Of a stretch of 64,000 nt of DNA, positions 20,201 to 45,780 are shown one piece after another. A program made the position numbers and the translations under genes. The DNA is from a virus (lineage: Duplodnaviria; Caudoviricetes), in IMG/VR virus record IMGVR_UViG_3300030090_003700, positions 494-64,493 of that record; one strand, 5' to 3'. The number at the start of each line of letters is the position of its first letter. The first letter of the stretch is position 1. The notes below the pieces were generated by a model that did no database searches, was not told the origin of the DNA, and saw only the letters and a program-made list of their open reading frames with translations.

Positions 20201-23200
20201 GAGGAGGTTATAGTAAACTTTTTAGAAAGAGTAGCAGAAGGAAAAATTAAAGACCCTAAGTTTATTGGTGTAGTTTCTGAAAGCTTAAGTAAAACTTCTG
20301 GGCTAGATGTTAACTTTAGAAGCGAAATAGATACTATAAAGTTTTTGCATGATTTAGGTTTAAAAATAAAAAATGGTACTTTTAAAAGAGGCGATTTAAA
20401 AAGCATAAGAGTAAATTTAAGAGGAAAGCTTAATGAAGCTAATACTGAGGTAAGAAAAATGATTGATGACTCAAAATATTCTGATTCAGATGCTAATATC
20501 ATACAAACCCTTTATAATAATCTTGGCGCTGAAGCCGCACCACAAATTGCAAATAATAAGTATGTTAGAAAAGTTATAAATGAAGTTTTAAGAAAATATT
20601 CAAATGTACCTGGCTATGCTACTTATAAAAAAGAATTTGAAGATGGCTTAATTAATGATCCAACTTATGGTATATTAGGGTCCTTGTTAACATATGATTC
20701 TAATAGAGACCCCGTTTTAGTTAAGCGTATTATTTTTAATTTAAGACAAAGAAGTAAAACGATTGCCGAAGATATATTTCCTCAAGCCTTTGCTGATGAT
20801 GTTACAGAAGTTAAAAATGTAACAGAAGACGTTACAAGCGTTGAAATATTAGATCAAAGAGAAAGCCTTAGAATTTCATTAGGGCTTAATGAAGACGTTA
20901 TAAACCGCGTTAAACAGTCTGTATTAAAGACATTTGGTGGTAAATTGCCTAATGTTACAAGCATACAGTTTAGAAGAAAGCTACAAGAGTCATTCAGAAT
21001 ATTTTTAAAGAAAACAATTGCTAAAGATGTACTAAAACAAGGTGACGCGTACAAAGCATTTTTAGAAAACAATTTTGAATTAATATATGGTGTATTATCA
21101 CAAGGTAATATAAATAAAAGATTTAAACCTTTTGCTGAACCTATATTAGGAAAAGATGGCAAACAGCTTAGAGAAAAAACTGCAGAAGGTAATAAAATAT
21201 TTATTAAAAGAAAACTTACAAAAGAAGAATTTGTAAATTATTTTGTAGGCGAAGATGTCAAGCCTTCTACTAGAGGCACAAGAAAAACTGCATTAGCAGA
21301 ATCATTAGCTGAAGAAATTGCATTTGACGCTACATTAGATGTATTAAGAGATCCCGCGCCAATTGATAATGCTGGTAATACTTTATTAGATAGAGTTGAA
21401 CAAATTATAGAAATTAACGGTGAAGAGTTTAGCGAAAACTATTTAGCGCAAGTTGCAAAAGAAATTGATAGAGCAACTGATTTTAAATTTAGCGATTCAA
21501 GCGCAGGTATAACGGTATTAGACTTTGATGACACTGTAGCTATATCTAAAAGCATGGTTATTGTTGAAATGGAAGACAAAACTAAAAAAGAATTAACACC
21601 TGCAGAGTTTGCAAAACAACATGACGCTTTAAAGAAGGAAGGCGCTAAGTTTGATTTTAGTCAGTTTAATAAAGTTATAGGTGGTGAAAAAGGACCTTTA
21701 TTTGGTAGATTACAAAAAGCTGTAAATAAATTTGGAAATAAAAATGTATTTATATTAACAGCTAGACCGCAAGAAGCAGCACCGGCTATAAAAGCATGGT
21801 TAAAATCACAAGGTATAGCATTAGCAGAAAAAAATATAGTTGGATTATCTGACGGTTCGCCGCAAGCAAAAGCCGATTGGATATTAGGAAAAGCACAAGA
21901 AGGATTTAATAACTTTTATTTTGCAGACGATGTATTAGAAAATACTTATGCAGTTGAACAAGTACTATCGCAGGTTGATGTTAAATATCGTGTAAACCAA
22001 AACTTCGGGCCCTCTCAATTTAGTGACTCAGGTAAAGTTGAAGGGCTAATTGAATTTATTGAAAATGCAATTGATAATGAATTTACAGGAGATCAATTGT
22101 GGCAATCCATGCAAAAAAATAATCCTTTAATGTATTCAATAATAACTAAAGCAAATAAAAGAGGTGAAACCGAAGAGTTATTTAGAGCAAAACAATTAAA
22201 AGGATTACTTGGGGATAAGATTGAAATACTCAATATGGAAGAGCTTGAAAATGTTTTAACCTCCAGTAGAAAAGCGCAAGACCTACAAGTTTTATTTAAA
22301 TTTAAGGGCGGTGTTAATATTGGAATGGAAATTAAAATGAGCGCTCTTGCTAAAATGGGGTCAAAAAATAGTTATAAAAAATTATTAGAAAGTTATGGCG
22401 CCGACACTATGAGTAAAATAATAGACATTCAAACCGATTTGAACGGCGCAATATTTGGTATTTTAAAAAATGAAGGATTAATAGAAGGCGAAGATTATTA
22501 TTTTGCACCGCCACCCGGAAAAAGTGAAACCACTGATGGCTATATAGAAATAAGATATGATCGAAAGAAATTATTAGAAAAAACTGGTTATGATAGATTG
22601 GCAAGAAAACCAAAACCTTCAAGGCCAGATGGTGGGCTTTTAACTGCAAAAGGGCTACAGTTATCTGACACAAACAAATATGAGTTTAATATACCCACAC
22701 TTAAACCTATAGTAGATTTATATACAAATAAAGGCGCACAATATATAATAATTAATGGAAAAATATATTCATTAGCAACTAATCCTTTAAATATAGACAC
22801 CGCTAGCTTATTAAGTTTGCCATATGATTCTAAATTACAGGTTACAATGAAAGATGAAAATGGAACAGGCGGAGAAGGTAGAATGATAATAAGAGGCTAT
22901 TTACAAATGGCTGAAAAAGGAACAACTAAAAATATTAATCCTTCTGAATTTAATGATATTAAAGGCGTTAAAACTATTGAAGAAGCATTTACAAATTTTA
23001 GTGATAGTAATGTAAATTTAGATAATGAAATAAATAATATTATAGAAAAAAGCAGTACAGCTCAGGGCAAAACTGTTAAGAATATTGTTCGTTATTCTGA
23101 TACTAAAGCGAAAATATTAGGTAAAAATAAAGGTAAAGGCGGCTTTTTATTTAGATTTTCAGCCGATGATTTACAAGGATTCACATATGAAATTATAAAA

Positions 23201-29743: not shown

Positions 29744-31465
29744 TTATCCATCACAGGCTAAACAATTCTCATCCATAGCTTGTTCAGCAATATCTCCTCT
29801 TAGTACAGACTCTGTACGAACATAATACAAAGTTTTAATACCTTTTTTCCACGCTTCTAAATGAACTTTATTAAGCCATTTAGGTGTAGCTACAGAAGGA
29901 AATGCTAAATTTAAACTAACAGATTGGTCAATATATTGTTGACGTATTCCTGCTTGATTAACTAATTCTAGTTGATTTATTTCTTTAAAAGTTTTGAATA
30001 TTTCTTTGACGGGTATATCGTGACTTCCATAAGTAATTTTGTCTAATGCTTTTATACCTTGGATTGATCCTCCGTCTGCTAAGATTTTGTTCCATATTTT
30101 TTCATTATCTAATTTATGTTTTCTTAATATCTTTCTTAGCGTAGGATTTTTTCTTATAAATGTACCCTTTGCTGATTGCTCAGTAAATATATTAGCGGCC
30201 CAAGGCTCAATACCAGGACTAACATTACCGCTAAGCTTGCTATTAGACACAGTAGGAGCAATAGCCCGTAAATGCGTGTTACGCATTCCAGTACCACGGC
30301 ACCAAAGAGGTTCGCCATACGTTTCAGCCAATGCGCGACTTGCTCTTTCACTTTCAATTTTAATTTGTGAAAATATCCTACGAGTTTCAAACTGTGCGAG
30401 TAAACCTTCAAAAGGAATACCTTTGTCTTGTAAATAGGTATGCCAACCAAGAACACCAAGTCCAAGGGCTCTACCCTTTTCAGCCGACCTAACAGCGTTT
30501 TCAAATCCGTATCTATATTTTGCTCTTTGTATAAATTCTTCAAGTACCCCATCCAAGAACCAAATCGCATCATGAATGATGTTTGTGTTTTTCCATTCTT
30601 CATATTTTGCTAAGTTTAATGATGATAAACAACACACAAAACTATGTGACTCATCTGTATGTAATGTTATTTCACTACATATATTAGTCATATGTACTTT
30701 TAAAGCGTTGTCTTTGTAAGCCGCTGGATTTTGTTTGTTAGTGTTACCTTTAAAAAGTATATAAGGTTCTCCAGTCGCTTTACGTTTTTGCAATAACTTA
30801 CTCCATTTTTTTCTTGCAACTTTATCGCCTGCTTCAAGTCTTCGCATGAATTTATCGCCGACGACAGCGCATTGATGTAAGTTAAGCGATTGTCTGTTGA
30901 TGTCTCCTTTAGGTTCTCTAATTTCGAGCCACTCTTCAAAATCATCGTGGTCAATGTTAATATTAACGCTAGCTGCTCCTCTTCTAACGGATCCTTGATT
31001 TGTTGCAAGAATAGTTGAATCGTATATTTTACAGAAAGGCACCACTCCGTCGCTTGTTCCATTTCCAGTTATTTTTGCGCCGGCGGGTCTAATCATATTA
31101 ATTCCGATACCTACTCCACCGCCGTGCTTAGCGAGTAACATCATCTCTAAATTCTTTTTACCAATATCTTGTATACTATCAGCAACGTCAATTCCAAAAC
31201 AACTAATAGGCAAACCTCGATCTATACCTGTATTAGAAAGCACTGGGGACGCTAAACATAGCCAACCTTTCCATATATATTCAAAAAAGGTTTCAGCTAA
31301 TTCTGGACGATATAAACGCTTCGCAACAGTTGTTGAAACACGCATATAAGCGTCACGTGGCGACTCACCATTATATAGATAACCACCTGTAATTGTTTTC
31401 TTATAAACATCTGTATCACCCCAAACAGGGTAATCAATTCCTTTTTTCCAATCTTTATTCCACAT
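29744..31465 (-). CDS. nrdA: Ribonucleotide reductase class I alpha subunit (no ATP cone)
   Basis: PISCF, GGGVG, TNICSEI, IAPTVSNS, KTLYY and C-terminal CLAC motifs. Confidence 0.95.
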   Translation of the reverse strand: MWNKDWKKGIDYPVWGDTDVYKKTITGGYLYNGESPRDAYMRVSTTVAKRLYRPELAETFFEYIWKGWLCLASPVLSNTGIDRGLPISCFGIDVADSIQDIGKKNLEMMLLAKHGGGVGIGINMIRPAGAKITGNGTSDGVVPFCKIYDSTILATNQGSVRRGAASVNINIDHDDFEEWLEIREPKGDINRQSLNLHQCAVVGDKFMRRLEAGDKVARKKWSKLLQKRKATGEPYILFKGNTNKQNPAAYKDNALKVHMTNICSEITLHTDESHSFVCCLSSLNLAKYEEWKNTNIIHDAIWFLDGVLEEFIQRAKYRYGFENAVRSAEKGRALGLGVLGWHTYLQDKGIPFEGLLAQFETRRIFSQIKIESERASRALAETYGEPLWCRGTGMRNTHLRAIAPTVSNSKLSGNVSPGIEPWAANIFTEQSAKGTFIRKNPTLRKILRKHKLDNEKIWNKILADGGSIQGIKALDKITYGSHDIPVKEIFKTFKEINQLELVNQAGIRQQYIDQSVSLNLAFPSVATPKWLNKVHLEAWKKGIKTLYYVRTESVLRGDIAEQAMDENCLACDG

Positions 31466-31466
31466 A

Positions 31467-31715
31467 TTATTTTAAAAAGTGATTTATCCAAGCAGCTAAA
31501 CCATTAAGATTTAGTGCTACTAAGTTCCATTGTTTTCTTGATGACACTTGCACTATAACACATATAAAACCAATTATAAATAATATAGGCTCAAGCGTCC
31601 ATTGTCCAGCCATCAAAAAAGCTGCACCCGCATATCCAACACGGGATGCAAACTTTTGATAACTTGTTAATTTATTTGTATAGACTAATAGTCTAAGTAA
31701 TTTTCTTCTTACCAT
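31467..31715 (-). CDS. Small membrane protein
   Basis: 82 aa with hydrophobic segments, between nrdB and nrdA. Confidence 0.55.
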   Translation of the reverse strand: MVRRKLLRLLVYTNKLTSYQKFASRVGYAGAAFLMAGQWTLEPILFIIGFICVIVQVSSRKQWNLVALNLNGLAAWINHFLK

Positions 31716-32668
31716 ATGTCTTCAAAATCTTCACCTTCATTAGCCTTGCTATAATCAGTTGGCCTAATTGCAAAAAAGTCGGTATGAGTGTGACCACCAG
31801 TAAGATGATAGAACCAATTAAGATTATTTGCACAGCCTTCATCATAAGTAAAAACGCCATTATAACCAAGTTCATTAAGTTTTTCATTTAATCTTTTCTT
31901 TATAAAGTGTTTTAAATCTTTTGCTTTAAGATTTTCAATATCACCCATTTCAAACATCTTATCAATATATTTCATTTCAGCGTCATGCATCAAGCTGGCT
32001 GCTTCTATTATATCTTTTTCAGCATCTTTTTTGAGTGTTGGTATTTCTTCACACATATGTCTAAATAATCTACAACCCATTTTACTATGTAATGATTCGT
32101 CTCTTACAGACCATTTCATTTGTTGTCCTATGCCTTTAAGTAAGTTTCTAAGCTGAAAACTATATAATACAGCAAAAGCACTGTACAAACTAACTCCTTC
32201 AGCAAAGGCGGAAAAAATAGCAAGACTGCGCCCGATACCCACAGGATCAGAGCCGTCATAACCAACCAGGTTTTCAAAGCGCTCGGCCGTAGCAGGCTCG
32301 TGTAAAAACGCTTCAAAGTCTTCAAGTCCAAGTGTTTCATTTAAATAACTATAAGCTACAGCATGTATTGTTTCTTGTGAGCCGAACATCATAGCCATTT
32401 GCTGTATTTCATGTTTTGGAAACCATGATACGACTTTCTGCGTCCAATAATCTGACACAGCACATTCAGTTTGTGCAAAACCTAAAAGGATATTACCAAC
32501 TAAATGTTTTTCTTCTTTTGTTAATTTTTCATTCCAGTCTTTAACATCACCTGACATAGGTATTTCTGTATGTAACCAAAATGCCTGAGCTTGTTTTAAC
32601 CAACCTTCTGTGTAATACTCAGGGTATTCAAAAGGCTTATACGGTATTCTTTCTTCAAATAATCCCAT
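31709..32668 (-). CDS. nrdB: Ribonucleotide reductase class I beta subunit
   Basis: FW..EI, QETIHAVAY, EGVSLYSAF, RDESLH, DFF motifs. Confidence 0.95.
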   Translation of the reverse strand: MGLFEERIPYKPFEYPEYYTEGWLKQAQAFWLHTEIPMSGDVKDWNEKLTKEEKHLVGNILLGFAQTECAVSDYWTQKVVSWFPKHEIQQMAMMFGSQETIHAVAYSYLNETLGLEDFEAFLHEPATAERFENLVGYDGSDPVGIGRSLAIFSAFAEGVSLYSAFAVLYSFQLRNLLKGIGQQMKWSVRDESLHSKMGCRLFRHMCEEIPTLKKDAEKDIIEAASLMHDAEMKYIDKMFEMGDIENLKAKDLKHFIKKRLNEKLNELGYNGVFTYDEGCANNLNWFYHLTGGHTHTDFFAIRPTDYSKANEGEDFEDIW

Positions 32669-32976: not shown

Positions 32977-33139
32977 AACATTTTATTGAGTATTTATCAT
33001 GTATAAACATTAAATCTTTCCATCTTAAACCACCTCGTGCTTTAATGCTCCATTTGATAAACGTATCAATTTTACGTTCTTTATACTTACGTCTTGCTAA
33101 GTGCTTGGCGTTTGTAGTATTTCTATTACCTTGTCGCAT
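32969..33139 (-). CDS. Small basic protein (56 aa, not in ORF track)
   Basis: MRQGNR...LARRKYKERKIDTFIKW read by hand; fills operon gap. Confidence 0.5.
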   Translation of the reverse strand: MRQGNRNTTNAKHLARRKYKERKIDTFIKWSIKARGGLRWKDLMFIHDKYSIKCYG

Positions 33140-33552
33140 TCTTTTTGATTTTGTGGTTTAAATAATTTATAATTAGGAAACTGTTGCATTACTAATCTTT
33201 TAAACAATTTCCATCGCATTGGAAACGATTCATTGGGTCTTCCTTTAGTTTCAATAATAAAATCTTTACCAATAAAGTCTGGAGTATATTTTATAGGCAA
33301 GATTCTTTTCTCGCCTCTATTTTTAAAATCTCCTTTACTATTAGATTGTCTTTCCCAGCATTCATTATCAAAATGAAAGCCATTAAGTAATACAAAGGTT
33401 TCACCCTCGTAGCTAGATTTTATACCAGCTTTTTTCAAAGCACAGTACATATATTTTTCTAACCCGGAAGCGAAGGTGATACCATCATATACTACTTTTT
33501 TAGAAACTACGGGACCTCTTTTCTTTCTTCTTTTATAAGTCCTCTTCTTCAT
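33097..33552 (-). CDS. T7 endonuclease I-like resolvase (PD-(D/E)xK)
   Basis: FASGLE...KYTPDF...IIETKGR motifs. Confidence 0.82.
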   Translation of the reverse strand: MKKRTYKRRKKRGPVVSKKVVYDGITFASGLEKYMYCALKKAGIKSSYEGETFVLLNGFHFDNECWERQSNSKGDFKNRGEKRILPIKYTPDFIGKDFIIETKGRPNESFPMRWKLFKRLVMQQFPNYKLFKPQNQKECDKVIEILQTPST

Positions 33553-33775
33553 CGAATTGCATTCTTTTTAACATACATTCTTCAATCTCATCACATAAAA
33601 CAGACTTTGCTTTTTCAATATAATTAACAGCGTCCATTAATTCTTCTTGTATGTGTGTTAGCCAGACTTCTAGTGACTGGTCGTCTTCTTGTAACGTTAC
33701 GCCATATTTTTTATAGCCTACGTCTGAGCGGCTTTTAATCTTATTAATTACTCGCTCGATTATTTTATCTCTCAT
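33533..33775 (-). CDS. Small helical protein, possible all-alpha NTP-pyrophosphatase relative
   Basis: GYKKYG...HIQEELMDAVNY acidic helix. Confidence 0.45.
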   Translation of the reverse strand: MRDKIIERVINKIKSRSDVGYKKYGVTLQEDDQSLEVWLTHIQEELMDAVNYIEKAKSVLCDEIEECMLKRMQFDEEEDL

Positions 33776-34538
33776 CTTTTACAAATGTTCCGTTAATCAT
33801 TTCACCTTTACGGTTCTTAATTTGATTGTATGCTGATGCTATACACGTTTCAATCTTTACACCTTCTAAATGCGCTAGATTTGTAAGTACAACAACCATA
33901 TCGCCAATGGCATCTACAATTTCTTCATGATCACTAGTTAATAATGCTTTAGCTAATTCACCAGCTTCTTCTTGTAGTTTAATATATTGAACAATAGTAT
34001 TACCTTCGTCATATATTCCTCGCACTTGTGCCCATGCTCTAATGTTTTCAAATACGCTACTTTGTGAATCAGCATATTCTATTAAGCTGTCTAAGCTATT
34101 TTGTTCATTAAAGAATTCTATCATAGCTTTATTATATACATAACATCTATTCTTGTTATACATAGACTCTTTAGCATTATCTGTTATCCATTTAGCAAGG
34201 TCTTTATCTAAAGACACTCTACCAAATTCTGTTTTCCAGTTCATACCTAAGCTATCCATTAATCTACCTTTCAGTTTATTAACAGGAACCGGAAATGTTG
34301 TGGTTTGTTCGGTTACGTTTATTTTCATTTTAAATAAATTTTTATAAGGTTTGTGGTCAATCCTATATCCATAAGACTGTTGAAGTTCTATCTCTTTCTC
34401 TGATATATAATTTATATCATCGGACTGATCAAGAACTTCGTACTCTCCAGGCTTATAGCCCTGCGTTAGCGTAACCCTTTTATTAAGATTACGTGTAACG
34501 CCGATTTTTTTACCTGGAATATGATAAATATAATACAT
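33765..34538 (-). CDS. MazG-like NTP pyrophosphohydrolase with N-terminal GIY-YIG-like segment
   Basis: C-terminal KLQEEAGEL...DAIGDMVV...AYNQIKNRKG; N-terminal YYIY...KIGVT...KR. Confidence 0.78.
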   Translation of the reverse strand: MYYIYHIPGKKIGVTRNLNKRVTLTQGYKPGEYEVLDQSDDINYISEKEIELQQSYGYRIDHKPYKNLFKMKINVTEQTTTFPVPVNKLKGRLMDSLGMNWKTEFGRVSLDKDLAKWITDNAKESMYNKNRCYVYNKAMIEFFNEQNSLDSLIEYADSQSSVFENIRAWAQVRGIYDEGNTIVQYIKLQEEAGELAKALLTSDHEEIVDAIGDMVVVLTNLAHLEGVKIETCIASAYNQIKNRKGEMINGTFVKDER

Positions 34539-35380
34539 TATTTTCCAACGTTTAGCTTTGCCTTTATTGGAGGCAAAGGATTATAATTAATTAATTCAAA
34601 TTGTTTTTTCTTTGGTATTTTTAATCCAGGATTACTTCTGTGACCGCCTTCATATATAATACCATCGCCAGTTATTTTAAGTTTAGGTAATTCAATATTG
34701 CTTATATCTCTATATATGTATTCTTCTGCAGGTTTAAGATGATTTAAATATAGGTGGCAATCACCAAGTTGTGCAATAAGTTTACCTGGTTTATATTCTG
34801 TATTGTAACATAGTAATTCAAGTAATATACCGTACATTGCAATATCATAAGGTAAACCTAAGAATACATCTGCTGAACGTTGAATCCATATTAAATCCAT
34901 TTTATCATTATTTATATTTACTTGTAAACCATAATGACATGGTGGTAATACCATATTCTTTAATTTATCTGGTCTCCATGCATTTATAATATGTCTTCTT
35001 GATGATGGGTTAACACTAATGTTATATATTAAATTCATAAGTTGGTCATAACCATTAAAGTCACGCCATTGTGCACCATAAACTGGGCCAAGCTTTCCGT
35101 CTTTACGGCCAGACCTTTCATAATCATCATCCCAATAATGAACACCGTTCTCATGCAAATAATTTAAGTCTGTTCTACCTTGCAATATCCATAGTAATTC
35201 AGTAATTGCATGATTGAAATACATTTTCTTTCCAACTAATAAAGGAAAGCCAATAGACATATCATGCTCTAACTGTCTACCAAACACAGATTTAGTACCA
35301 ACTCCGGTTCTATCTGCTTTTGTAGATGCATTTAATAAGCTTGCCATTAAAGCTCTATATTGATTTTCTATATTTGTCAT
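34538..35380 (-). CDS. thyA: Thymidylate synthase homologue with Asn-to-Asp specificity change (possible dCMP methylase/hydroxymethylase)
   Basis: DRTGVGT, ELLW, GPVYGAQWR, SRR, LPPCH, QRSADVFLGLPYDI, GDCHLY; start set at MTNIENQY. Confidence 0.88.
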   Translation of the reverse strand: MTNIENQYRALMASLLNASTKADRTGVGTKSVFGRQLEHDMSIGFPLLVGKKMYFNHAITELLWILQGRTDLNYLHENGVHYWDDDYERSGRKDGKLGPVYGAQWRDFNGYDQLMNLIYNISVNPSSRRHIINAWRPDKLKNMVLPPCHYGLQVNINNDKMDLIWIQRSADVFLGLPYDIAMYGILLELLCYNTEYKPGKLIAQLGDCHLYLNHLKPAEEYIYRDISNIELPKLKITGDGIIYEGGHRSNPGLKIPKKKQFELINYNPLPPIKAKLNVGK

Positions 35381-35639
35381 AATAATATTTACACATTCTA
35401 TAATACTCAGACCATATTGTATGTTTATCATAAATAGATGGAGATACATTTGCTCTCTCACCTTTTTTATATGGTCCCATTCTAATTTCTATTCTCCATT
35501 TTTGAGAATCTTCTTTAATACCTATAGGTGATATTCGTATATTATTTCTTACGCAATAATTATATGCTGCTCTTTCCTCCTCGCTAGGAAGATATTGCGG
35601 CATTCGATAATTCTTACGTTTTCCATATATACTTTTCAT
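35355..35639 (-). CDS. Hypothetical protein
   Basis: 94-aa ORF abutting primase-helicase. Confidence 0.6.
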   Translation of the reverse strand: MKSIYGKRKNYRMPQYLPSEEERAAYNYCVRNNIRISPIGIKEDSQKWRIEIRMGPYKKGERANVSPSIYDKHTIWSEYYRMCKYYYDKYRKSI

Positions 35640-37361
35640 TTATTCCCAAGGCATTGGTTCCGCATCTAATTCTAGTTGCTCGTGCGGTATAAAGCAACCT
35701 GAACGAGGCTCCCATTTAAAATGAGCTTCAGCTCCGTTCTCTCCGAGATTTTGAAACTTAACTTTAAGGACTTTTGCCTTGACAGTTTTTGCATCATAAT
35801 CGCGGTGTACGAGAAGGCCATGATAACTCGCGTCATACCATTCACCTCCCCCTTTGATATTATACATCGTTGGTTCTTCAATTTTTCCTTCACTTGTTTT
35901 ATACATTTTAGTAGGGTGAGCAACTATAAATACTAATACATCAAACTTCTTAGCAAAGATTTCAATCTTAGTAAGATATTCCATTGTATATCTATTTACA
36001 TCTTCAGACTTACAATCTACATCTCTAATCTTATTAAATGGGTCTATAACAAGGCATTTAATACCTTTACGCTTAACTAATTCTGCACCTTTACGTAATA
36101 CTGTTTCAAGAGTATAACGCTCCATATCGATAAAGAAAAAGTTATCGTTAACGTGTTCTGCTACTTGTTTCCATTTAGCTGAGCCAATATCAGATTTTCG
36201 CGGCATGTCTTGCCATACTTTACGCATTAACTTATGCGCATGTAAATAAGTGGGTGCATTTTCAGGAGATGCAAACGCTGTTTTCCAGCCGTAGTTATTA
36301 TTATAACCTACAACCATTTGGTCAACAAAATCAGACTTACCGCTACTAGGTATACCAGTAACAGTAATAAACTGACCAGTGTAAGTACTGAATATATCAT
36401 CGAAGTTTTTGATTCCGATTTGATACCCTTTCCTAAAACCGTTTTGTACAAAGTCCGTAACTTCATGTTCTATATCTTTAAAAGTTGTTACATTTTCTAA
36501 TGGTACAGGTCTACATTCAGTAATTGTTTTGGCTAAGTCCTCTTTACCATATTTAAGTAAATATTCATTAGCGTCTTTACAATCAACAAAGTTGGTTAGA
36601 TAACAGGTCTCTGCTCCTAGCCTTCTAATTAATTCTGTCTGCAATGCTATACCAGCTTCATCAGCATCTACTGCTAAGATTATCTTTTCTTTATCTTCAA
36701 AGTAATCGATACAATTATCAAGATAATCTAAATTGTTATGGTTTAATGTAGCCCCGTTTGGTACGGATATTACATTATGTATTCCTGCTTCATGATAAGA
36801 CAGTGCATCCATCTCACCTTCAACAATAACACAAGTGTCATAACCCACTATACTATTTAAATTATAAAAGACTTTCTCAGCACCTTTATATAATTTAAAG
36901 TGCTTATGTCCGTCTCTATATTTTATATTGATAAGTTCATCACCTATCATGTAGTTGAATTTAATTGTGTTTTCAACCTTGCCTGTTTGTGGCATGAATT
37001 CTGGGCCTTCAGATACATTCATTTCTTCTAGTGTATCTTTTGATATGCCTCGCTGTTCAAACCATTCAATTACTTTACTACTAACGGGTTTATGTGTTTT
37101 TGTAGAATAATCTGGTTTAATATATTCTTTATCACCGCCGCCTTTACGTTGATAAGTATGTAATTGAAATGTTGAGTTACAGTTGTGACAAGTACCAAGA
37201 CCACGTTCCCAATCATAACTAGCACATTTTTGTTTCCTGTTTTCAGGCTTACGGTTATGTGAACACAGGGGACAAATCCCCTGCGTTGCACCAACCTTCA
37301 AATCATGCTGGTTAAACTGGTCGATTAAGAATCCATTAATCTCCGTATTGTTTACTTGCAT
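35640..37361 (-). CDS. Primase-helicase (T7 gp4/Twinkle-like)
   Basis: Zn finger CPLC...CHNC, TOPRIM VEGEMD...DAD...KDANE, Walker A GIPSSGKS, IDP, VAHP. Confidence 0.93.
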   Translation of the reverse strand: MQVNNTEINGFLIDQFNQHDLKVGATQGICPLCSHNRKPENRKQKCASYDWERGLGTCHNCNSTFQLHTYQRKGGGDKEYIKPDYSTKTHKPVSSKVIEWFEQRGISKDTLEEMNVSEGPEFMPQTGKVENTIKFNYMIGDELINIKYRDGHKHFKLYKGAEKVFYNLNSIVGYDTCVIVEGEMDALSYHEAGIHNVISVPNGATLNHNNLDYLDNCIDYFEDKEKIILAVDADEAGIALQTELIRRLGAETCYLTNFVDCKDANEYLLKYGKEDLAKTITECRPVPLENVTTFKDIEHEVTDFVQNGFRKGYQIGIKNFDDIFSTYTGQFITVTGIPSSGKSDFVDQMVVGYNNNYGWKTAFASPENAPTYLHAHKLMRKVWQDMPRKSDIGSAKWKQVAEHVNDNFFFIDMERYTLETVLRKGAELVKRKGIKCLVIDPFNKIRDVDCKSEDVNRYTMEYLTKIEIFAKKFDVLVFIVAHPTKMYKTSEGKIEEPTMYNIKGGGEWYDASYHGLLVHRDYDAKTVKAKVLKVKFQNLGENGAEAHFKWEPRSGCFIPHEQLELDAEPMPWE

Positions 37362-37866: not shown

Positions 37867-38604
37867 TTATAATGTTAAGTTAATAAAATATTGAGATGGG
37901 TCAAATCCATCAGTTTTGTAGAATAAATCGTAAGCTTCTACTGCTCTCTTAACCTTGTCTTTACCTGACTCATAAAAATCAGGTGAACAATCTACTACTG
38001 CTATTTGATTAGTATTTTTATCAATAACAATAAAACAAAATTCATAACCAAACAAAGTACTGTATATATATGCTTGACTATCGTAATTCCAACGGTAAGC
38101 AGAGCGCCTGAAAGAGTTTATATCTGAGGTAGTCTTTAAATCAATCACAAGTCTTTCATCATGATTAACTATATCAGCCTTACCTTTCCACATAACTCCT
38201 TCAAGCTCCGCAATACCTGGCTTCTCATACTCAACATCAATACCACGAATAAGTCCGCGACATATATCATTTTCCAATACTTTAGTGGTCATCAATTCTA
38301 TTTTGTCTACTTCATGCTGTAATAAGCACAGCTCTCCGCCTGACATTTCTTTGTAAGCCTTAGTGTTTCTAGTTGACGAAGGTATTACTCGGTATTTCTT
38401 CAACTTATCTGGTTCAAGTATAGCGGTGTGAAAATATCCGCCAACAAGAAACGCTGGGCTAGGCTTAGATTGTTCTCCAAGCGCTAAGGGGTTAGTTAAT
38501 AAAGTTTTAATGTCACTATTACTTAAATATTGTTTACCAAATTCGCCATAATAGTTTTCATCATCTCTTAACTTTTTAATAACCTCTTCTTTTTTCATTA
38601 TCAA
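37867..38604 (-). CDS. RecE/exonuclease VIII-like PD-(D/E)xK exonuclease
   Basis: LSNSDIK, G.YFHTAILEP, KGKAD, IDLKTT, YDSQAYIY motifs. Confidence 0.85.
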   Translation of the reverse strand: MIMKKEEVIKKLRDDENYYGEFGKQYLSNSDIKTLLTNPLALGEQSKPSPAFLVGGYFHTAILEPDKLKKYRVIPSSTRNTKAYKEMSGGELCLLQHEVDKIELMTTKVLENDICRGLIRGIDVEYEKPGIAELEGVMWKGKADIVNHDERLVIDLKTTSDINSFRRSAYRWNYDSQAYIYSTLFGYEFCFIVIDKNTNQIAVVDCSPDFYESGKDKVKRAVEAYDLFYKTDGFDPSQYFINLTL

Positions 38605-38628
38605 ATTTAGTTCGTGTTACGCTTGTAA
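38597..38628 (-). promoter_or_regulatory. Conserved phage promoter-like motif, copy 1
   Basis: - strand TTACAAGCGTAACACGAACTAAATTTGATAAT. Confidence 0.65.
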
Positions 38629-39153
38629 TAGTTTTTCTTGCTCTGGTGTTAAATCATATTTTGCTTTAATAGCATCTAATTTACCGCCAGCTTTTAAATA
38701 ATCTACTGCTTTAGTTATATCACTAAGTTTTTGTTTTATTTTTTGTTTAGCTATAACTTTACCATGATTATTTGTAGCGTCACTATCTTGCGTATCATCG
38801 ATTAATAATAGGTTTCCTAACGCGTACTTTTTAGCATAACTCGACGCCGAACCAAATTGTTGTGGTGTCTGCATACCTTTCTGGTTCAGATCCACACCAA
38901 CTATCGCAACAGCAGTTAACTCCATGCCTTTATCGTCAGTTAACTTTGCAGTCGACTGTATAATAGGCATAGGTTCAGTAGCAATTAATTCTTCATTAAT
39001 TGTAACTGCAATTCCCAACTCGTCGTTAAACGGTTTAATAGCTTCGAGAATGTCTTCGGCAGAGCGAAAGTAATATTTGCCGAATGAATTAAATCTACTC
39101 TTCTTCGATTTAAATTTTGTTTGAATTTTTGCTAGTTTCTGGTATATGGTCAT
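38617..39153 (-). CDS. ERF-family single-strand annealing protein
   Basis: KYYFRSAEDILEAIKP, QQFGSASSYAKKYAL...DDTQDSD. Confidence 0.88.
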   Translation of the reverse strand: MTIYQKLAKIQTKFKSKKSRFNSFGKYYFRSAEDILEAIKPFNDELGIAVTINEELIATEPMPIIQSTAKLTDDKGMELTAVAIVGVDLNQKGMQTPQQFGSASSYAKKYALGNLLLIDDTQDSDATNNHGKVIAKQKIKQKLSDITKAVDYLKAGGKLDAIKAKYDLTPEQEKLLQA

Positions 39154-39207: not shown

Positions 39208-39972
39208 TTAAAGGTAATCAAGCACTTGCGAGGAATCAACGTTATCGATTAGACATTGTATAGCATCACGTTTTATTTGAGAAATACGTACATGAGCTGT
39301 GTTTACATTAATATCTAATTTAGCCGCAATTTCGTTTGCAGAGTGCTTATCACAGTCAAGACCGTAACTTAATCTAAGTACTTCTTGCTGCTTAAAATCT
39401 AAATGCTTTTTCATTAGTTGTAATAAATAAGCATTGAGTAAATGTATGTTATATGGTTCTGATTTATCAATAACTTGATAAGCCATATTTTCATCATCAT
39501 TTGGTTTATCGTCAATACTTGCAAATACACTATTAAAAAACATTGCAACCATTTTTTCATCTTTTGGGTTGCGTCTTATTTCATTTAGTTTATGTTCAGG
39601 AATGCGTACGCCGCCTCTATTAATATCTACGGCTCTACGTACGGCTCCTTTAATTCTTTTTGATAGAAATGATTTAATTGTTTTTTCTTGGTCGTCAGAC
39701 TCAGCTAAAACAGTTCGGTCTAATTTACTAACCGCTGCTGTAAGCCCCGCCGCACCTTCTTGTAATAAATCATTTATACTTAATACACCTGACGCTTGGT
39801 CTGAGGTGGATTGTTTTCTTGCTAATGTTTCAACTAACGGTAAAAAGTTAATTACTATTTCTTCGTTTGTTAAATACGTATAATCACCGTCAATTGGTTT
39901 TCTTACACGTTTAACAGCTGCTTCAACTTCTTTCTTGTATCTAACATAATTAGCTATGTTATACTTTCTCAT
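39208..39972 (-). CDS. Phage sigma70-family RNA polymerase sigma factor
   Basis: FLPLVETLAR, DLLQEG..GL..AV, VRIPEH, region-4 HTH VLRLSYGL...EIAAKL...RISQIK. Confidence 0.85.
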   Translation of the reverse strand: MRKYNIANYVRYKKEVEAAVKRVRKPIDGDYTYLTNEEIVINFLPLVETLARKQSTSDQASGVLSINDLLQEGAAGLTAAVSKLDRTVLAESDDQEKTIKSFLSKRIKGAVRRAVDINRGGVRIPEHKLNEIRRNPKDEKMVAMFFNSVFASIDDKPNDDENMAYQVIDKSEPYNIHLLNAYLLQLMKKHLDFKQQEVLRLSYGLDCDKHSANEIAAKLDINVNTAHVRISQIKRDAIQCLIDNVDSSQVLDYL

Positions 39973-40586
39973 AATTCTTTATTCAGTATTTCTTTTTCTT
40001 GTTTTAATTGGTTACCCATATTTCTGTATATGGTTCGTGTAGTACACTTTAATAACTTAGCTAACTTAGCTATAGTTATTTTTTGTTTACTATCGTTTAA
40101 ATCTATCATGCATTGGTATATATCTTCTTCACATATTCTTTTACTTCTACCAATCAATCTTCCAACTATACTTAGCTTTTCACTTAATGATAAACCAGTA
40201 TAATCTTTAAATATTACTTTACGTATACGATTACGTGGGGGTTCGCCTCCTTCCATAAACACATCTTTAATTATATCTTTTAATACCTTTTGTTTAATAA
40301 AGAATGTTACAAAACCATTTTCTTTATCTGCTATAAACTTAAATACAGCACCAATATCCATCATTGGAATATCGGGATTTAGGTATTGTAATACAAGCAT
40401 GTGCCATTTCAACGACTTATACGTAGTAATCTTTGCTTTGCTTCTAAATAAACTATAGCATTGATACGTACCTTCCGCGTAGTAATCGTATTGATCAGTA
40501 CTTTCGGTAGGCTTATCTGTGATAGGGTCACGTCTATATATTATTCGCCTATCATTTAGCCACTTCATATTTCTTTCATGTGACAT
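39969..40586 (-). CDS. DNA-binding protein with C-terminal HTH
   Basis: KITIAKLAKLLKCTTRTIYRNM HTH. Confidence 0.7.
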   Translation of the reverse strand: MSHERNMKWLNDRRIIYRRDPITDKPTESTDQYDYYAEGTYQCYSLFRSKAKITTYKSLKWHMLVLQYLNPDIPMMDIGAVFKFIADKENGFVTFFIKQKVLKDIIKDVFMEGGEPPRNRIRKVIFKDYTGLSLSEKLSIVGRLIGRSKRICEEDIYQCMIDLNDSKQKITIAKLAKLLKCTTRTIYRNMGNQLKQEKEILNKEL

Positions 40587-40704: not shown

Positions 40705-41001
40705 TCATTTTCTGTCGTATTTTACATTACCGTACACAATCAATTGTATATCACTATCTTTATACACTGATTTTTCAGGGTAATTTAAGTATCTATTTTT
40801 TATTTGTATATCTTTATCCAGCGGTAGATTGTAATTTATATATATCGCTGTTACTAGAGACGAATTGATTGCTATCAATAGTATTATAATAAGTTTCGAT
40901 AACTTCTCTAGGGACTGTGTTGTAATCGTAAGGTGTTTCATTTTTGTTACAGATTTTTCGTTTGTCAATAATATAGTAGCGCCAATAACCGTGTATAGCA
41001 T
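40705..41001 (-). CDS. Hypothetical protein with hydrophobic segment (start uncertain)
   Basis: LIIILLIAINSSLVTAIYI; overlaps 3' part of glycosylase gene. Confidence 0.35.
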   Translation of the reverse strand: MLYTVIGATILLTNEKSVTKMKHLTITTQSLEKLSKLIIILLIAINSSLVTAIYINYNLPLDKDIQIKNRYLNYPEKSVYKDSDIQLIVYGNVKYDRK

Positions 41002-41389
41002 TTACCATTTTGTATTCGTCTGGCATACACTGTGGTGGGTCTGTCCACTCATAGCTAGTTATATTAGCAGGTGGTGTCGCTAAGAAATCTCTACATTTAA
41101 TTATAGTGAGATGCTCTTTACCATATCGTTTAGTATATTCTTTACCCAATGCAATCATATGGTCATATAACCACATATAATTTGGTATAGAAGTTCTACA
41201 CCATATAGTTGATGGGTGATTAAGGTGAGCCTGTTTATAAGGTATATGTTGCTTTTGTTCTTGGCTGCCAAACACGTGGTGTGCAGTGCAAAGCATCTGT
41301 GCAGACTCTAATATCATTTTTACTTTATGCTTATCGTAAACATAAGACGCCGCTTTTGCGGGATCGTGGTGTAAGAAAAATATATTCAT
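40814..41389 (-). CDS. Pyrimidine-dimer DNA glycosylase-like protein (DenV superfamily)
   Basis: MNIFFL, DKHKVKMILESAQMLCTAH, HLNHPSTIW, EYTKRYGKEH, PPQCMPDEYK. Confidence 0.75.
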   Translation of the reverse strand: MNIFFLHHDPAKAASYVYDKHKVKMILESAQMLCTAHHVFGSQEQKQHIPYKQAHLNHPSTIWCRTSIPNYMWLYDHMIALGKEYTKRYGKEHLTIIKCRDFLATPPANITSYEWTDPPQCMPDEYKMVNAIHGYWRYYIIDKRKICNKNETPYDYNTVPREVIETYYNTIDSNQFVSSNSDIYKLQSTAG

Positions 41390-45185: not shown

Positions 45186-45404
45186 TTACTTATTTAATTC
45201 AGTTAATATATCTTCTAACATTTCTATACTTGTTGACTTCAATCTCTCGTCAAACCAGTCTTGAGTGACTATACCATTATGTAGTACATAGTTACATATT
45301 ATAGTTTCATTGTTTACGTCTTCTTCTGTTCCCCAGTAGTTTACGTTTTCTTTGTGTTTTACTATTTCTTTTTTAGTAAATTCAATAATTTCTTTAGTGT
45401 TCAT
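45186..45404 (-). CDS. Hypothetical early protein
   Basis: 72-aa ORF downstream of promoter copy 5. Confidence 0.6.
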   Translation of the reverse strand: MNTKEIIEFTKKEIVKHKENVNYWGTEEDVNNETIICNYVLHNGIVTQDWFDERLKSTSIEMLEDILTELNK

Positions 45405-45420
45405 TTCTTAATTTTTATTA

Positions 45421-45463
45421 GTTACATATTAAATATCAATTTAGGTTCGTGTTAGGCTTGTAA
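45421..45463 (-). promoter_or_regulatory. Conserved phage promoter-like motif, copy 5
   Basis: - strand TTACAAGCCTAACACGAACCTAAATTGATATTTAATATGTAAC. Confidence 0.7.
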
Positions 45464-45668
45464 AAGTATATTAACTGTTTAGTAGTAAAAAAAGAGATTC
45501 AGGTGTAGTTCTTACTCTCTTTTCTTGTAAAGTAAAAATAGTGACGTTAGCTAGTAATATTAGTAATAATAGTGAGCTTTTGTCACACTATTTACCGGCA
45601 TGACGATCTGTCGTGTTAGTAACTTTATATGACAATACGTCATACGGTGACAATTCCGGCGCGGTTTT

Positions 45669-45714: not shown

Positions 45715-45780
45715 CGAAACCCTCCGGTGCCGAGTGATACTTTCCGTATATCTTGCCTTTGGGTTTGGTGATTAGAGAGT

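What the first reader, a model, noticed from the sequence alone, without database searches (positions are those of the whole stretch)
33533..35380. ThyA homologue with the dCMP-specificity Asp beside a MazG-like pyrophosphatase: candidate cytosine-modification (5mC/5hmC) pathway
Seen: the motif reads QRSADVFLGLPYDIAMY (GAT codon at 34844-34846) where dUMP-specific thymidylate synthases have GLPFNIASY. Established: this Asn (E. coli N177, L. casei N229) sets dUMP versus dCMP specificity; N-to-D mutants methylate dCMP, and T4 dCMP hydroxymethylase has Asp here. The rest of the protein is ThyA-like (PPCH, SRR, GDCHLY), which fits a methylase better than a T4-type hydroxymethylase. The gene is translationally coupled to a MazG-like NTP pyrophosphatase, followed by a small acidic helical protein. 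Inference: MazG converts dCTP to dCMP, the ThyA homologue makes 5-methyl-dCMP, and the phage DNA carries modified cytosine as anti-restriction, or dTMP is made via a dCMP route. No dedicated dNMP kinase or DNA polymerase is visible, so host enzymes would have to complete the pathway.
Basis: partly seen in the sequence, partly recalled or inferred. Interest (0 to 1): 0.85.

Follow-up and report, generated by a model that had tools for sequence, protein, structure and literature searches.

The report
Predicted phage dCMP methylase with MazG partner
A marine phage carries a thymidylate-synthase look-alike whose one key residue predicts that it methylates dCMP instead of dUMP, a known phage route to 5-methylcytosine DNA, seen here in a large uncultured phage family.

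Summary
Window 34538-35380 (minus strand) encodes a complete 280-aa ThyA-family enzyme (PF00303, E 9.8e-77). Aligned with E. coli ThyA, it has Asp (GAT, 34844-34846) at N177. It keeps Cys146, His147, Leu143, Asp169 and the C-terminal tail. The Asp is not private: it is present in 121 of 121 metagenomic homologues (59-91% identity) and 80 of 80 IMG/VR loci.

By published residue rules, this signature predicts a dCMP C5-methyltransferase (5-methyl-dCMP synthase). It does not fit a hydroxymethylase or a 5-hydroxy-dCMP synthase.

The downstream gene overlaps by one base (TAATG). It is not a plain MazG but a conserved fusion: a weakly T5orf172/GIY-YIG-like N-domain, a middle domain, and a MazG/PRA-PH pyrophosphatase. 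It lies beside the ThyA homologue in 80 of 80 loci. The 80-aa acidic helical-hairpin protein is present in 68 of 80.

The 64.5-kb genome is a Flavobacteriia-type podophage. No DNA polymerase, deaminase, DHFR, ThyX, dUTPase, C5-methyltransferase or P-loop dNMP kinase was detected.

The principle is already published (Xp12, MetaGPA studies), so this is a new member of a known kind. Nothing here tests whether virion DNA carries 5mC.

The parts
34538..35380 (-). ThyA-family enzyme (P0001, 280 aa). Predicted dCMP C5-methyltransferase (5-methyl-dCMP synthase).
   Evidence: PF00303 E 9.8e-77. Best solved relative is T4 thymidylate synthase 1TIS, E 1.2e-58. Alignment A1 gives 40% identity to E. coli ThyA, 28% to the Xp12 enzyme and 23% to T4 gp42. 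Residues at E. coli positions 143/146/147/169/176/177 are L-C-H-D-Y-D.
34844..34846 (-). GAT codon for Asp179, equivalent to E. coli ThyA Asn177. This is the pyrimidine-specificity residue.
   Evidence: codon; alignment. Conserved in 121 of 121 homologues and 80 of 80 loci.
34308..34538 (-). N-terminal domain of the fusion protein P0002 (about residues 1-77). Weakly T5orf172/MUG113-like, i.e. GIY-YIG superfamily.
   Evidence: PF10544 hits 15 of 24 family members and PF13455 hits 12 of 24; all hits are below the curated cut-off, best E 0.002. An ESM Atlas feature search also points to T5orf172. Many columns are invariant in A2. The AlphaFold model has pLDDT below 50 for residues 1-69.
34077..34307 (-). 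Middle alpha/beta region of P0002 (about residues 78-154). Function unknown.
   Evidence: pLDDT 70-88. Conserved in A2. No structural match covers it.
33765..34076 (-). MazG/PRA-PH all-alpha NTP pyrophosphohydrolase domain of P0002 (about residues 155-257), plus the stop codon. Inferred dCTP to dCMP + PPi.
   Evidence: PF01503 at 30.8 bits (cut-off 21.3) and PF03819 at 24.5 bits (cut-off 22). PHROG 'MazG-like pyrophosphatase' families, E 5.9e-32 and 1.3e-29. PDB 1vmg by sequence. Fold matches to S-2L MazZ 7ody, Sulfolobus MazG and PRA-PH: Foldseek E about 0.02, VIA Z 6.8-7.8.
33533..33775 (-). Small acidic two-helix hairpin protein (P0003, 80 aa). Conserved module member of unknown function.
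   Evidence: Present in 68 of 80 loci, mostly directly after the MazG fusion. Only PHROGs of unknown function match. No Pfam family. Model pLDDT 88.9, helices 4-24 and 35-79. No Foldseek match.
35355..35639 (-). 94-aa ORF upstream of the ThyA gene, overlapping its start. Function unknown.
   Evidence: Its cluster is present in 58 of 80 loci. No Pfam, PHROG or NCBIfam match.
35640..37361 (-). Primase-helicase (Toprim + DnaB-like). The only replication enzyme recognised.
   Evidence: PF13155 E 1.6e-14 and PF03796 E 3.4e-08. Walker A motif.
31709..32668 (-). Ribonucleotide reductase small subunit. Supplies dNDPs to the same module.
   Evidence: PF00268 E 7.3e-58. Syntenic in 60 of 80 loci.
29744..31465 (-). 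Ribonucleotide reductase large subunit.
   Evidence: PF02867 E 8.5e-94.
33097..33552 (-). DUF1064 / Holliday-junction-resolvase-like nuclease downstream of the module.
   Evidence: PF06356 E 8.7e-07. phrog_190 E 2.7e-12. Present in 78 of 80 loci.

Best explanation
The ThyA homologue is a folate-dependent dCMP C5-methyltransferase. Cys148 attacks C6 of dCMP. Asp179 (E. coli N177) reads and protonates the cytosine N3/N4 face, where Asn would read uracil. Methylene-THF then gives its one-carbon unit and a hydride inside an active site closed by the retained C-terminal tail and Leu at position 143. The products are 5-methyl-dCMP and dihydrofolate.

The overlapping downstream gene supplies the substrate. 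Its MazG/PRA-PH domain is inferred to hydrolyse dCTP to dCMP + PPi. That both feeds the methylase and drains unmodified dCTP, as gp56 does for gp42 in T4.

Host kinases and the host replicative polymerase would then carry 5-methyl-dCTP into phage DNA. The phage brings only a primase-helicase and ribonucleotide reductase. Cytosine would be replaced, fully or in part, by 5-methylcytosine as cover against restriction.

Shown: the residues, their conservation and the gene linkage. Inferred: the dCMP substrate, the methyl product, the MazG substrate and the fate of the product.
For: Enzyme integrity and signature:
- It is an intact TS-fold enzyme.
- In A1 these E. coli positions are invariant: Cys146, Arg126/127, Arg166, Ser167, Asp169, Tyr94, Glu58, His207 and Tyr209.
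- The signature is Asp at 177, Leu at 143 and Asp at 169, with the full C-terminal tail.

Published rules:
- N177D gives dCMP. A hydrophobic residue at 143 gives methyl, and Asp/Glu gives hydroxymethyl. D169N gives 5-hydroxy-dCMP (PMC13326640 sections 24 and 28).
- The TS C-terminal tail seals the site for methylation and is missing in T4 dCH (PMC6400193 passages).
- Single N-to-D mutants of otherwise normal TS make 5mdCMP (PMC8670742 passage).
- Five of seven metagenomic D177 homologues, and the Xp12 enzyme, made 5mdC in vivo (bioRxiv 10.1101/2024.12.05.627091 passage).

Conservation and linkage:
- Asp is under strong constraint: 121 of 121 and 80 of 80.
- The MazG fusion is present in 80 of 80 loci.
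- It lies directly downstream in at least 65, and one ORF away in 8, of the 73 loci covered by the printed gene orders.
- The stop and start overlap as TAATG.
- TS and PRA-PH domains co-occur on cytosine-modified contigs (PMC8670742; bioRxiv).
- The two nearest deposited relatives by terminase, MW202828 and Flavobacterium phage elemoA, lack both genes. The two genes therefore travel together.

No other thymidylate or cytosine-methylation route:
- No second ThyA, ThyX or C5 DNA methyltransferase was found in the genome.
Against: - No activity or DNA-composition data exist for this clade.
- No dNMP kinase is recognisable. The published in-vivo assays co-expressed a phage dNMP kinase to get modified nucleotides into DNA. 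Xp12 is recalled to induce its own 5mdCMP kinase.
- Unlike Xp12, the genome has no DNA polymerase, dCMP deaminase or DHFR.
- The enzyme keeps His147, the second most modification-associated position in MetaGPA. Xp12 has Pro there and gp42 has Thr.
- The position-143 rule is not absolute: the Xp12 methylase aligns Asn there.
- Two of seven tested D177 homologues gave no 5mdC.
- C-containing restriction sites are still avoided. GATATC is 0 observed against 19 expected in the window, and GATC 98 against 158. In 755 kb of relatives, the observed/expected ratio is 0.39 for GATATC and 0.60 for GAGCTC. This would be unexpected if the DNA were broadly restriction-proof.
- MazG substrate specificity cannot be read from the fold.
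Confidence: 0.55

Rival explanations
1. The enzyme is the same (a dCMP methylase fed by the MazG dCTPase), but the product does not go into DNA as 5mC. Instead 5-methyl-dCMP, or its triphosphate, is deaminated by a host dCMP/dCTP-type deaminase to dTMP/dTTP. The module would then be a dUMP-independent thymidylate route that turns the dCTP pool into T for a 67% A+T genome.
For: - Genome G+C is 0.30-0.35.
- No phage kinase for 5mdCMP is recognisable.
- The phage has no other thymidylate synthase.
- Deamination of 5-methyl-dC nucleotides to thymidine nucleotides is the proposed dTTP route in Xp12-like phages (bioRxiv passage).
- Restriction-site avoidance persists.
Against: - No deaminase domain is in the genome (PF00383 gave no match). 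In the published cases the deaminase is phage-encoded and lies beside the TS: 104 of 149 modified contigs, and in Xp12.
- A plain Asn177 ThyA would make dTMP more simply, so this route does not explain strict conservation of Asp.
- Whether host deaminases accept 5mdCMP is assumed, not tested.
Confidence: 0.2
2. Despite the Asp, the enzyme is still mainly a dUMP-methylating thymidylate synthase. It would be an ordinary phage ThyA that boosts dTMP supply, and the MazG fusion would be a general house-cleaning or dUTP/dCTP pyrophosphatase.
For: - Everything apart from residue 177 is TS-like.
- It passes the TIGR03284 thymidylate synthase cut-off: 226.3 bits against 108.35.
- Sources name relatives 'thymidylate synthase'.
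- Two of seven tested D177 homologues gave no 5mdC.
- MazG genes occur in many phages with no sign of modification.
Against: - Asn177 is kept in 139 of the 150 nearest family representatives, yet Asp is fixed in this clade.
- Mutagenesis cited shows that N-to-D switches preference to dCMP.
- It scores below the NCBIfam equivalog cut-offs NF002497 (253.6 against 327) and NF002499 (211.8 against 405).
Confidence: 0.1
3. The enzyme makes a different C5 product from dCMP, such as 5-hydroxymethyl-dCMP or 5-hydroxy-dCMP. That product would start a hypermodification pathway whose tailoring enzymes lie among the unannotated genes.
For: - Asp177 is shared with the dCMP hydroxymethylases and the 5hodCMP synthases.
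- The position-143 rule has at least one exception, Xp12.
- P0003, the N and middle domains of P0002, and many small ORFs have no assigned function.
Against: - Position 143 is Leu, not Asp/Glu. Asp169 is not Asn. The C-terminal tail is present.
- No glycosyltransferase, carbamoyltransferase, dioxygenase or kinase family appeared among the 47 ORFs scanned against Pfam. This covers 47 of the 75 non-overlapping ORFs of 45 aa or more, plus the orf94 reading frame. The ORFs left unscanned are nearly all under 90 aa.
Confidence: 0.08

Closest known systems
Xanthomonas phage Xp12 thymidylate-synthase homologue (dCMP methyltransferase; MT664984, CDS 45326-46195)
   Same: - It has the TS fold, the catalytic Cys, Asp at E. 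coli position 177 within the same LPYD motif, Asp169 and a C-terminal tail.
- It makes 5mdCMP, and Xp12 DNA has 5mC in place of C (bioRxiv passage; PMC7653180 passages).
- Ribonucleotide reductase is also present in the Xp12 genome.
   Different: - Identity is only 28%, and Xp12 sits on a separate long branch in the tree.
- Xp12 aligns Asn at position 143 and Pro at 147, where the window enzyme keeps Leu and His.
- Next to its enzyme, Xp12 has a dCMP deaminase and a DHFR-like gene. Elsewhere it has its own DNA polymerase I. It has no homologue of the MazG fusion.
- The window phage has none of the deaminase, DHFR or polymerase.
Engineered N177D E. coli and N229D L. casei thymidylate synthases
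   Same: An otherwise normal TS active site with the single Asn-to-Asp change. That is what the window enzyme looks like: 40% identical to E. coli ThyA, with signature L-C-H-D-Y-D against L-C-H-D-F-N. These mutants are reported to make 5mdCMP (passage in PMC8670742).
   Different: Those are laboratory mutants. Here the change is natural and fixed across a large clade. I did not read the primary mutagenesis papers; I saw them only as cited.
Metagenomic D177 TS homologues with 5mC-selective deaminases and PRA-PH neighbours (MetaGPA; PMC8670742 and bioRxiv 10.1101/2024.12.05.627091)
   Same: Viral TS homologues with Asp177 sit on contigs enriched for modified cytosine and co-occur with PRA-PH (PF01503) domains. 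PF01503 is also the best Pfam hit of P0002. Five of seven tested made 5mdC.
   Different: The tested enzymes were chosen because a deaminase lies beside them. The window genome has no deaminase. I could not check whether members of this clade are in those datasets, because supplements are closed.
T4 gp42 dCMP hydroxymethylase with gp56 dCTPase
   Same: The logic is the same: a pyrophosphatase turns dCTP into dCMP, and a TS-fold enzyme with Asp at the specificity position modifies C5 before replication (gp42, alignment). The gp56 role is recalled, not checked here.
   Different: - gp42 has Asp at position 143, lacks the C-terminal tail and is 23% identical.
- Its product is hydroxymethyl.
- T4 also brings its own dNMP kinase, polymerase and glucosyltransferases.
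Cyanophage S-2L MazZ (MazG-like, PDB 7ody), which feeds PurZ
   Same: A small phage MazG-like pyrophosphohydrolase that prepares the monophosphate substrate for a base-modifying enzyme. It is the top Foldseek match of the P0002 C-domain (E 0.016, TM 0.65 on the target) and has VIA Z 7.0.
   Different: - The match is weak and shared with many MazG/PRA-PH structures.
- MazZ acts on purine nucleotides (the entry title names dGDP).
- P0002 carries two extra N-terminal domains.

Membership tests
Thymidylate synthase superfamily (ThyA fold, PF00303) | Full-length match to the family profile and to solved TS structures | tested here: met
   PF00303 at 258.1 bits against a cut-off of 24.3, covering residues 7-277 and profile positions 2-265 of 266. 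121 PDB sequences match at E<=0.001, the best being T4 TS 1TIS.
Thymidylate synthase superfamily (ThyA fold, PF00303) | Catalytic Cys (E. coli C146) and the phosphate-binding and general acid/base residues | tested here: met
   C146, R126, R127, R166, S167, E58, Y94, H207 and Y209 are invariant columns in A1.
Canonical dUMP-specific thymidylate synthase (ThyA, EC 2.1.1.45) | Asn at E. coli position 177 | tested here: not met
   Asp is there. Among the 150 nearest representatives, 139 have Asn and 9 have Asp.
Canonical dUMP-specific thymidylate synthase (ThyA, EC 2.1.1.45) | Score above the curated NCBIfam equivalog cut-offs | tested here: inconclusive
   TIGR03284 is passed (226.3 against 108.35). 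NF002497 is not (253.6 against 327), nor NF002499 (211.8 against 405).
Phage dCMP C5-methyltransferase / 5-methyl-dCMP synthase (Xp12 type) | Asp at position 177 (dCMP specificity) | tested here: met
   Rule taken from PMC13326640 section 24 and PMC8670742.
Phage dCMP C5-methyltransferase / 5-methyl-dCMP synthase (Xp12 type) | No acidic residue at position 143, and a C-terminal tail to close the site for hydride transfer | tested here: met
   Leu is at 143 and the tail is present to the end of the alignment. Rationale. Caveat: Xp12 itself aligns Asn at 143.
Phage dCMP C5-methyltransferase / 5-methyl-dCMP synthase (Xp12 type) | Formation of 5-methyl-dCMP from dCMP and methylene-THF | not testable with these tools
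   Needs an enzyme assay or in-vivo LC-MS.
Phage dCMP C5-methyltransferase / 5-methyl-dCMP synthase (Xp12 type) | Common descent with the Xp12 enzyme | tested here: inconclusive
   Identity is 28%. In the FastTree of 113 rows, the Asp label needs 9 changes, and Xp12 is a long branch joined to gp42. Several independent Asn-to-Asp lineages are likely but not proven.
dCMP hydroxymethylase (T4 gp42 type) | Asp/Glu at position 143 and no C-terminal tail | tested here: not met
   Leu is at 143 and the tail is present. Features taken.
5-hydroxy-dCMP synthase (RB69 gp48 / DLP3 gp80 type) | Asn in place of Asp169 (D169N) | tested here: not met
   Asp169 is kept. Rule from PMC13326640 section 28.
MazG / PRA-PH all-alpha NTP pyrophosphohydrolases | Profile match above the curated cut-off, and the four-helix fold | tested here: met
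   PF01503 at 30.8 against 21.3, and PF03819 at 24.5 against 22. 24 of 24 relatives match both. Fold matches. The acidic EEAGE and EEIVD stretches are visible in the sequence; that these are the metal-binding motif is recalled.
MazG / PRA-PH all-alpha NTP pyrophosphohydrolases | Preference for dCTP over 5-methyl-dCTP | not testable with these tools
   Inferred only from the gene linkage.
T5orf172 / MUG113 (GIY-YIG superfamily), for the N-domain of P0002 | Profile match above the curated cut-off | tested here: inconclusive
   PF10544 scores 15 bits against a cut-off of 20 for P0002. Weak hits occur in 15 of 24 relatives, and PF13455 in 12 of 24. The ESM Atlas gives a lead. The model is unreliable for residues 1-69.

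The most novel reading that the evidence does not exclude
A very abundant, uncultured family of marine Flavobacteriia podophages may replace cytosine by 5-methylcytosine with a minimal three-gene cassette and no polymerase, kinase or deaminase of its own. The host replisome would then copy a fully methylated genome.

In this reading the GIY-YIG-like (T5orf172) domain fused to the dCTPase acts like T4 endonuclease II. It would cut unmodified host DNA and feed its cytosine into the pathway. The small hairpin protein would be a new accessory factor, for example one that retunes a host kinase or blocks a host enzyme that would destroy 5-methyl-dC nucleotides.
Probability: 0.12. Interest if true: 0.7.

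Novelty: new member of a known kind. Interest (0 to 1): 0.45.

Why it matters
If the prediction holds, a phage family widespread in the sea would carry 5mC-substituted DNA. The alignment scan returned at least 598 IMG/VR stretches. The stretch itself turned up in marine metagenome runs of 12 studies.

That would bear on three things:
- How marine viromes are sequenced and methylation-called.
- The restriction and anti-restriction arms race in Flavobacteriia, which are major algal-bloom degraders.
- The search for enzymes useful in methylation sequencing.

It would also show that pre-replicative cytosine replacement can work with a host polymerase and host kinases. If the product instead ends up as dTMP, the module would be a natural dUMP-independent thymidylate route.

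The residue logic itself is textbook and already exploited in print. The gain is in distribution and pathway economy, not in principle.

Tried and rejected
- **Close DNA relatives among deposited phages:** none (megablast).
- **Close protein relatives of P0001 among deposited phages:** none at 60% identity or more, either with the whole protein (4124 records, all under 60%) or with the 66-aa active-site core (2404 records, all under 60%).
- **P0003 as a half-MazG domain:** the profile comparison with the MazG fusion was not significant (hhalign probability 0.2, E 0.27). There was no Pfam family, only chance-level NCBIfam rows and no Foldseek match. The idea is left as speculation.
- **Complex prediction of P0003 with the MazG domain:** no verdict (score 0.02, mark 0.32). 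This is evidence neither way.
- **N and middle domains of P0002:** neither Foldseek nor VIA-align covered them; all rows fell on residues ~142-257.
- **Direct evidence of modification from public reads:** not obtainable. All 24 runs listed are kept as contigs, so nothing could be learnt, and read laying was not used.
- **Literature:** four searches found no paper on this marine clade. That is not proof that none exists.
- **Closed supplements that may bear on the claims:**
  - The Xp12 restriction table of PMC7653180, for whether EcoRV-type enzymes cut 5mC DNA.
  - The TS sequence lists of PMC8670742 and of the bioRxiv preprint, for whether this clade was sampled or assayed.
- **Sequencing error or a private variant:** rejected.
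- **A homing endonuclease recently inserted in front of MazG:** rejected. The N-domain is conserved at 45-88% identity in every locus where it could be read and has many invariant columns.

Full report
**What is there.** The window is bases 494-64493 of a 64,493-bp IMG/VR virus record that CheckV rates as complete. Its G+C is 0.30-0.35. On the minus strand, three overlapping genes fill the finding's coordinates.

- P0001 (34538-35380, 280 aa).
- P0002 (33765-34538, 257 aa).
- P0003 (33533-33775, 80 aa).

The P0001 stop and the P0002 start overlap as TAATG. P0002 and P0003 overlap by 11 nt.

P0001 is a full-length thymidylate-synthase-fold protein. PF00303 scores E 9.8e-77 across the whole profile. 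The best solved relative is T4 thymidylate synthase 1TIS, E 1.2e-58.

**The observation.** I fetched reference enzymes from named records: E. coli K-12 ThyA, the Xp12 TS homologue and T4 gp42. I then aligned them with P0001 (A1).

- The Asp in LGLPYD aligns with E. coli Asn177.
- The codon is GAT at 34844-34846.
- The Xp12 enzyme and gp42 also have Asp there.
- Cys146, Arg126/127, Arg166, Ser167, Asp169, Glu58, Tyr94, His207 and Tyr209 are invariant in the alignment.
- P0001 is 40% identical to E. coli ThyA, 28% to the Xp12 enzyme and 23% to gp42.

**Is the Asp real and constrained?**

- A search of 5.8 billion proteins gave thousands of hits. All 121 sequences aligned (the query plus the best 120, 59-91% identical) have Asp at this column.
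- Two scans of IMG/VR gave 22 close loci. With an alignment as query, the second scan gave at least 598 matching stretches, of which the best 80 were kept (54-93% identity). All 80 read LGLPYD.
- In an exhaustive search of 1.84 billion cluster representatives, the 150 best hits are mostly ordinary ThyA. Of these, 139 have Asn, 9 Asp and 1 Ser, and 1 is a fragment without the site.
- In a FastTree of 113 rows (47 representatives left out for length), the window's clade is one well-supported group. The Asp label needs about nine changes, so Asn-to-Asp has probably arisen several times. Most deep branches are poorly supported, and Xp12 and gp42 are long branches.

**What the residues predict.** Three papers give explicit rules.

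- PMC8670742 (passages). Asn177 sets dUMP specificity. Asn-to-Asp mutants make 5mdCMP. Positions 177 and 147 are the two most modification-associated positions among 433 virome TS sequences.
- PMC13326640 (sections 24 and 28 read in full). N177D gives dCMP. A bulky hydrophobic residue at 143 excludes water and goes with methylation, while Asp/Glu there goes with hydroxymethylation. D169N marks the flavin-dependent 5-hydroxy-dCMP synthases.
- PMC6400193 (passages). The TS C-terminal tail seals the site for the methylation reaction, and T4 dCMP hydroxymethylase lacks it. Trp83/Leu143 of E. coli TS are replaced by Val85/Asp145 in the T4 enzyme.

P0001 has Leu143, Asp169, Asp177 and a full C-terminal tail. 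That fits a dCMP methyltransferase and fails the tests for the other two product classes.

Two caveats apply. P0001 keeps His147, whereas Xp12 has Pro and gp42 has Thr. The Xp12 methylase aligns Asn at position 143, so that rule is not absolute.

Experimental precedent comes from the bioRxiv preprint 10.1101/2024.12.05.627091 (passages). Five of seven metagenomic D177 homologues, and the Xp12 enzyme, produced 5mdC in E. coli when co-expressed with T4 dNMP kinase.

**The neighbours.** P0002 is not a simple MazG.

- Only residues ~155-257 match MazG/PRA-PH:
  - PF01503 and PF03819 score above their cut-offs.
  - PHROG MazG-like families match.
  - PDB 1vmg matches by sequence.
  - Fold matches go to S-2L MazZ, archaeal and bacterial MazG, PRA-PH and DCTPP1, all at modest scores.
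- Residues 1-150 are at least as conserved as the MazG part (A2).
- Residues 1-77 give weak, sub-threshold hits to T5orf172 (15 of 24 relatives) and MUG113 (12 of 24). These families are recalled to belong to the GIY-YIG superfamily. A language-model feature search points the same way.
- The AlphaFold model is unreliable for residues 1-69.

P0003 is an acidic two-helix hairpin (pLDDT 88.9) with no family. Its conserved core does not match MazG significantly.

**Linkage.** In the 22 close loci, the gene order is primase-helicase, orf94, ThyA homologue, MazG fusion, (P0003), DUF1064 nuclease, small ORFs, NrdB, NrdA. The ThyA homologue and MazG fusion are adjacent in 22 of 22, and P0003 was found in 15 of 22.

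I clustered all ORFs of the 80 wider loci.

| Gene cluster | Loci with it (of 80) |
|---|---|
| ThyA homologue | 80 |
| MazG fusion | 80 |
| DUF1064 | 78 |
| Primase-helicase | 72 |
| P0003 | 68 |
| NrdB | 60 |
| orf94 | 58 |

All of these contigs therefore belong to one phage family of about 35-66 kb that carries the module as core genes.

The nearest deposited relatives by large terminase are MW202828 (62%) and the Flavobacterium elemo phages (44%), followed by Cellulophaga, Tenacibaculum and Maribacter phages. MW202828 and elemoA lack both the ThyA homologue and the MazG fusion.

Clade members in genome collections sit on small contigs binned mostly into Flavobacteriales, Flavobacteriaceae, Winogradskyella, Flaviramulus and Bacteroidetes MAGs. 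A Flavobacteriia host is therefore likely.

**What the phage lacks.** Six-frame family searches of the whole record found none of the following. The controls rang in known genomes.

| Family sought | Pfam |
|---|---|
| dCMP/cytidine deaminase | PF00383 |
| DNA polymerase A | PF00476 |
| DNA polymerase B | PF00136 |
| C5 DNA methyltransferase | PF00145 |
| DHFR | PF00186 |
| ThyX | PF02511 |
| dUTPase | PF00692 |

- No P-loop kinase motif occurs outside the helicase, apart from chance-looking hits.
- Pfam scans of 47 ORFs found no glycosyltransferase, dioxygenase, carbamoyltransferase or kinase.
- By contrast, Xp12 has a dCMP deaminase and a DHFR-like gene beside its enzyme, plus its own DNA polymerase I.

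**Mechanism.** The best-supported reading has three steps.

1. The MazG domain turns dCTP into dCMP (inferred).
2. P0001 methylates dCMP with methylene-THF (predicted from residues and precedent).
3. Host enzymes phosphorylate the product, and the host polymerase incorporates it (inferred).

The published co-occurrence of TS and PRA-PH domains on modified contigs supports the pairing.

The weakest link is the fate of 5mdCMP. No kinase is recognisable, and published assays needed a phage kinase for good incorporation. That keeps alive the rival in which a host deaminase turns 5-methyl-dC nucleotides into thymidine nucleotides.

An indirect sign against broad protection is that C-containing palindromes are still avoided.

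- In the window, GATATC is 0 observed against 19 expected (z -5.1), GATC is 98 against 158 (z -5.6) and TCTAGA is 2 against 11.
- In 755 kb of relatives, the observed/expected ratio is 0.39 for GATATC, 0.48 for GAATTC and 0.60 for GAGCTC, while GATC is not avoided (1.04).
- Xp12 DNA resists about 90% of type II enzymes tested, but some cut it regardless (PMC7653180 passage). The argument is therefore weak.

**Novelty.** Three things are in print: the specificity switch, natural Asp177 homologues in phages, their link to 5mC genomes, and their association with PRA-PH pyrophosphatases and deaminases. The reading is thus a correct rediscovery.

What is new is the setting.

- The lineage is distinct, TS-like and keeps His147.
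- It is fixed in a very common uncultured marine phage family.
- It has a T5orf172-like-MazG fusion and a small hairpin protein as constant partners.
- It has none of the polymerase, kinase or deaminase genes seen in the known 5mC phages.

No cultured phage in the deposited collection carries a close member. Four literature searches found nothing on this clade.

**Verdict.** This is a new member of a known kind. It is moderately interesting as a testable prediction about the DNA of an abundant marine phage group.

Noticed in passing
window, whole; loci L039-L108: Strong avoidance of some restriction palindromes. In the window, GATATC is 0 observed against 19 expected (z -5.1), GATC 98 against 158 (z -5.6) and TCTAGA 2 against 11. 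In 755 kb of related loci, the observed/expected ratio is 0.39 for GATATC and 0.48 for GAATTC, while GATC is not avoided. 9 of 29 loci over 12 kb have no GATATC.
   Followed up: partly
window 10460-14998 (+) and 17201-25291 (+): The 1512-aa protein carries a crAss-virus muzzle-protein C-terminal domain (PF25729, E 4.8e-11). The adjacent 2696-aa ORF and the 1745-aa ORF at 57659-62896 have no Pfam match. These are structural features like those of crAss-like Bacteroidota podophages.
   Followed up: no
window 47532-49097 (+), with 47217-47507 (+): A phage-encoded GroEL-type chaperonin (PF00118, E 1.2e-50), preceded by a 96-aa ORF with no Pfam hit. The related Flavobacterium phage elemoA is annotated with a co-chaperonin GroES next to its terminase.
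   Followed up: no
window 37867-39153 (-) and 39208-40586 (-): A recombination pair: an ERF single-strand annealing protein (PF04404) and a PDDEXK-like DUF3799. Next to it are a protein with sigma-70 region 4 and an HTH protein. They may be phage transcription factors.
   Followed up: no
L008:192-368, L017:3779-3919, L020:3426-3602: In three related loci the P0003 homologue lies about 6 kb upstream of the ThyA gene rather than after the MazG fusion. In one search a few loci have it directly before the ThyA gene. The small gene moves within the module.
   Followed up: partly
L117 (contig of 117,301 bp in a Flavobacteriaceae MAG): The whole module (primase-helicase to NrdA) sits inside a 117-kb contig of a long-read MAG. 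This is about twice the usual genome size of the family. It could be a concatemer, a larger relative or an integrated copy.
   Followed up: no
alignment A1; representatives: The Xp12 5mdCMP synthase aligns Asn at E. coli position 143 and Pro at 147. Among other Asp177 representatives, position 147 is His, Pro or Trp. The published 143 and 147 markers therefore do not behave uniformly across Asp177 lineages.
   Followed up: partly
window 40814-41389 (-): A 191-aa protein with a strong PHROG match labelled 'DNA binding protein' (phrog_624, E 2.7e-48) and a weak sub-threshold hit to pyrimidine-dimer DNA glycosylase (PF03013, E 5.9e-4). A DNA glycosylase-like protein in a phage predicted to modify a pyrimidine may deserve a look.
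   Followed up: no
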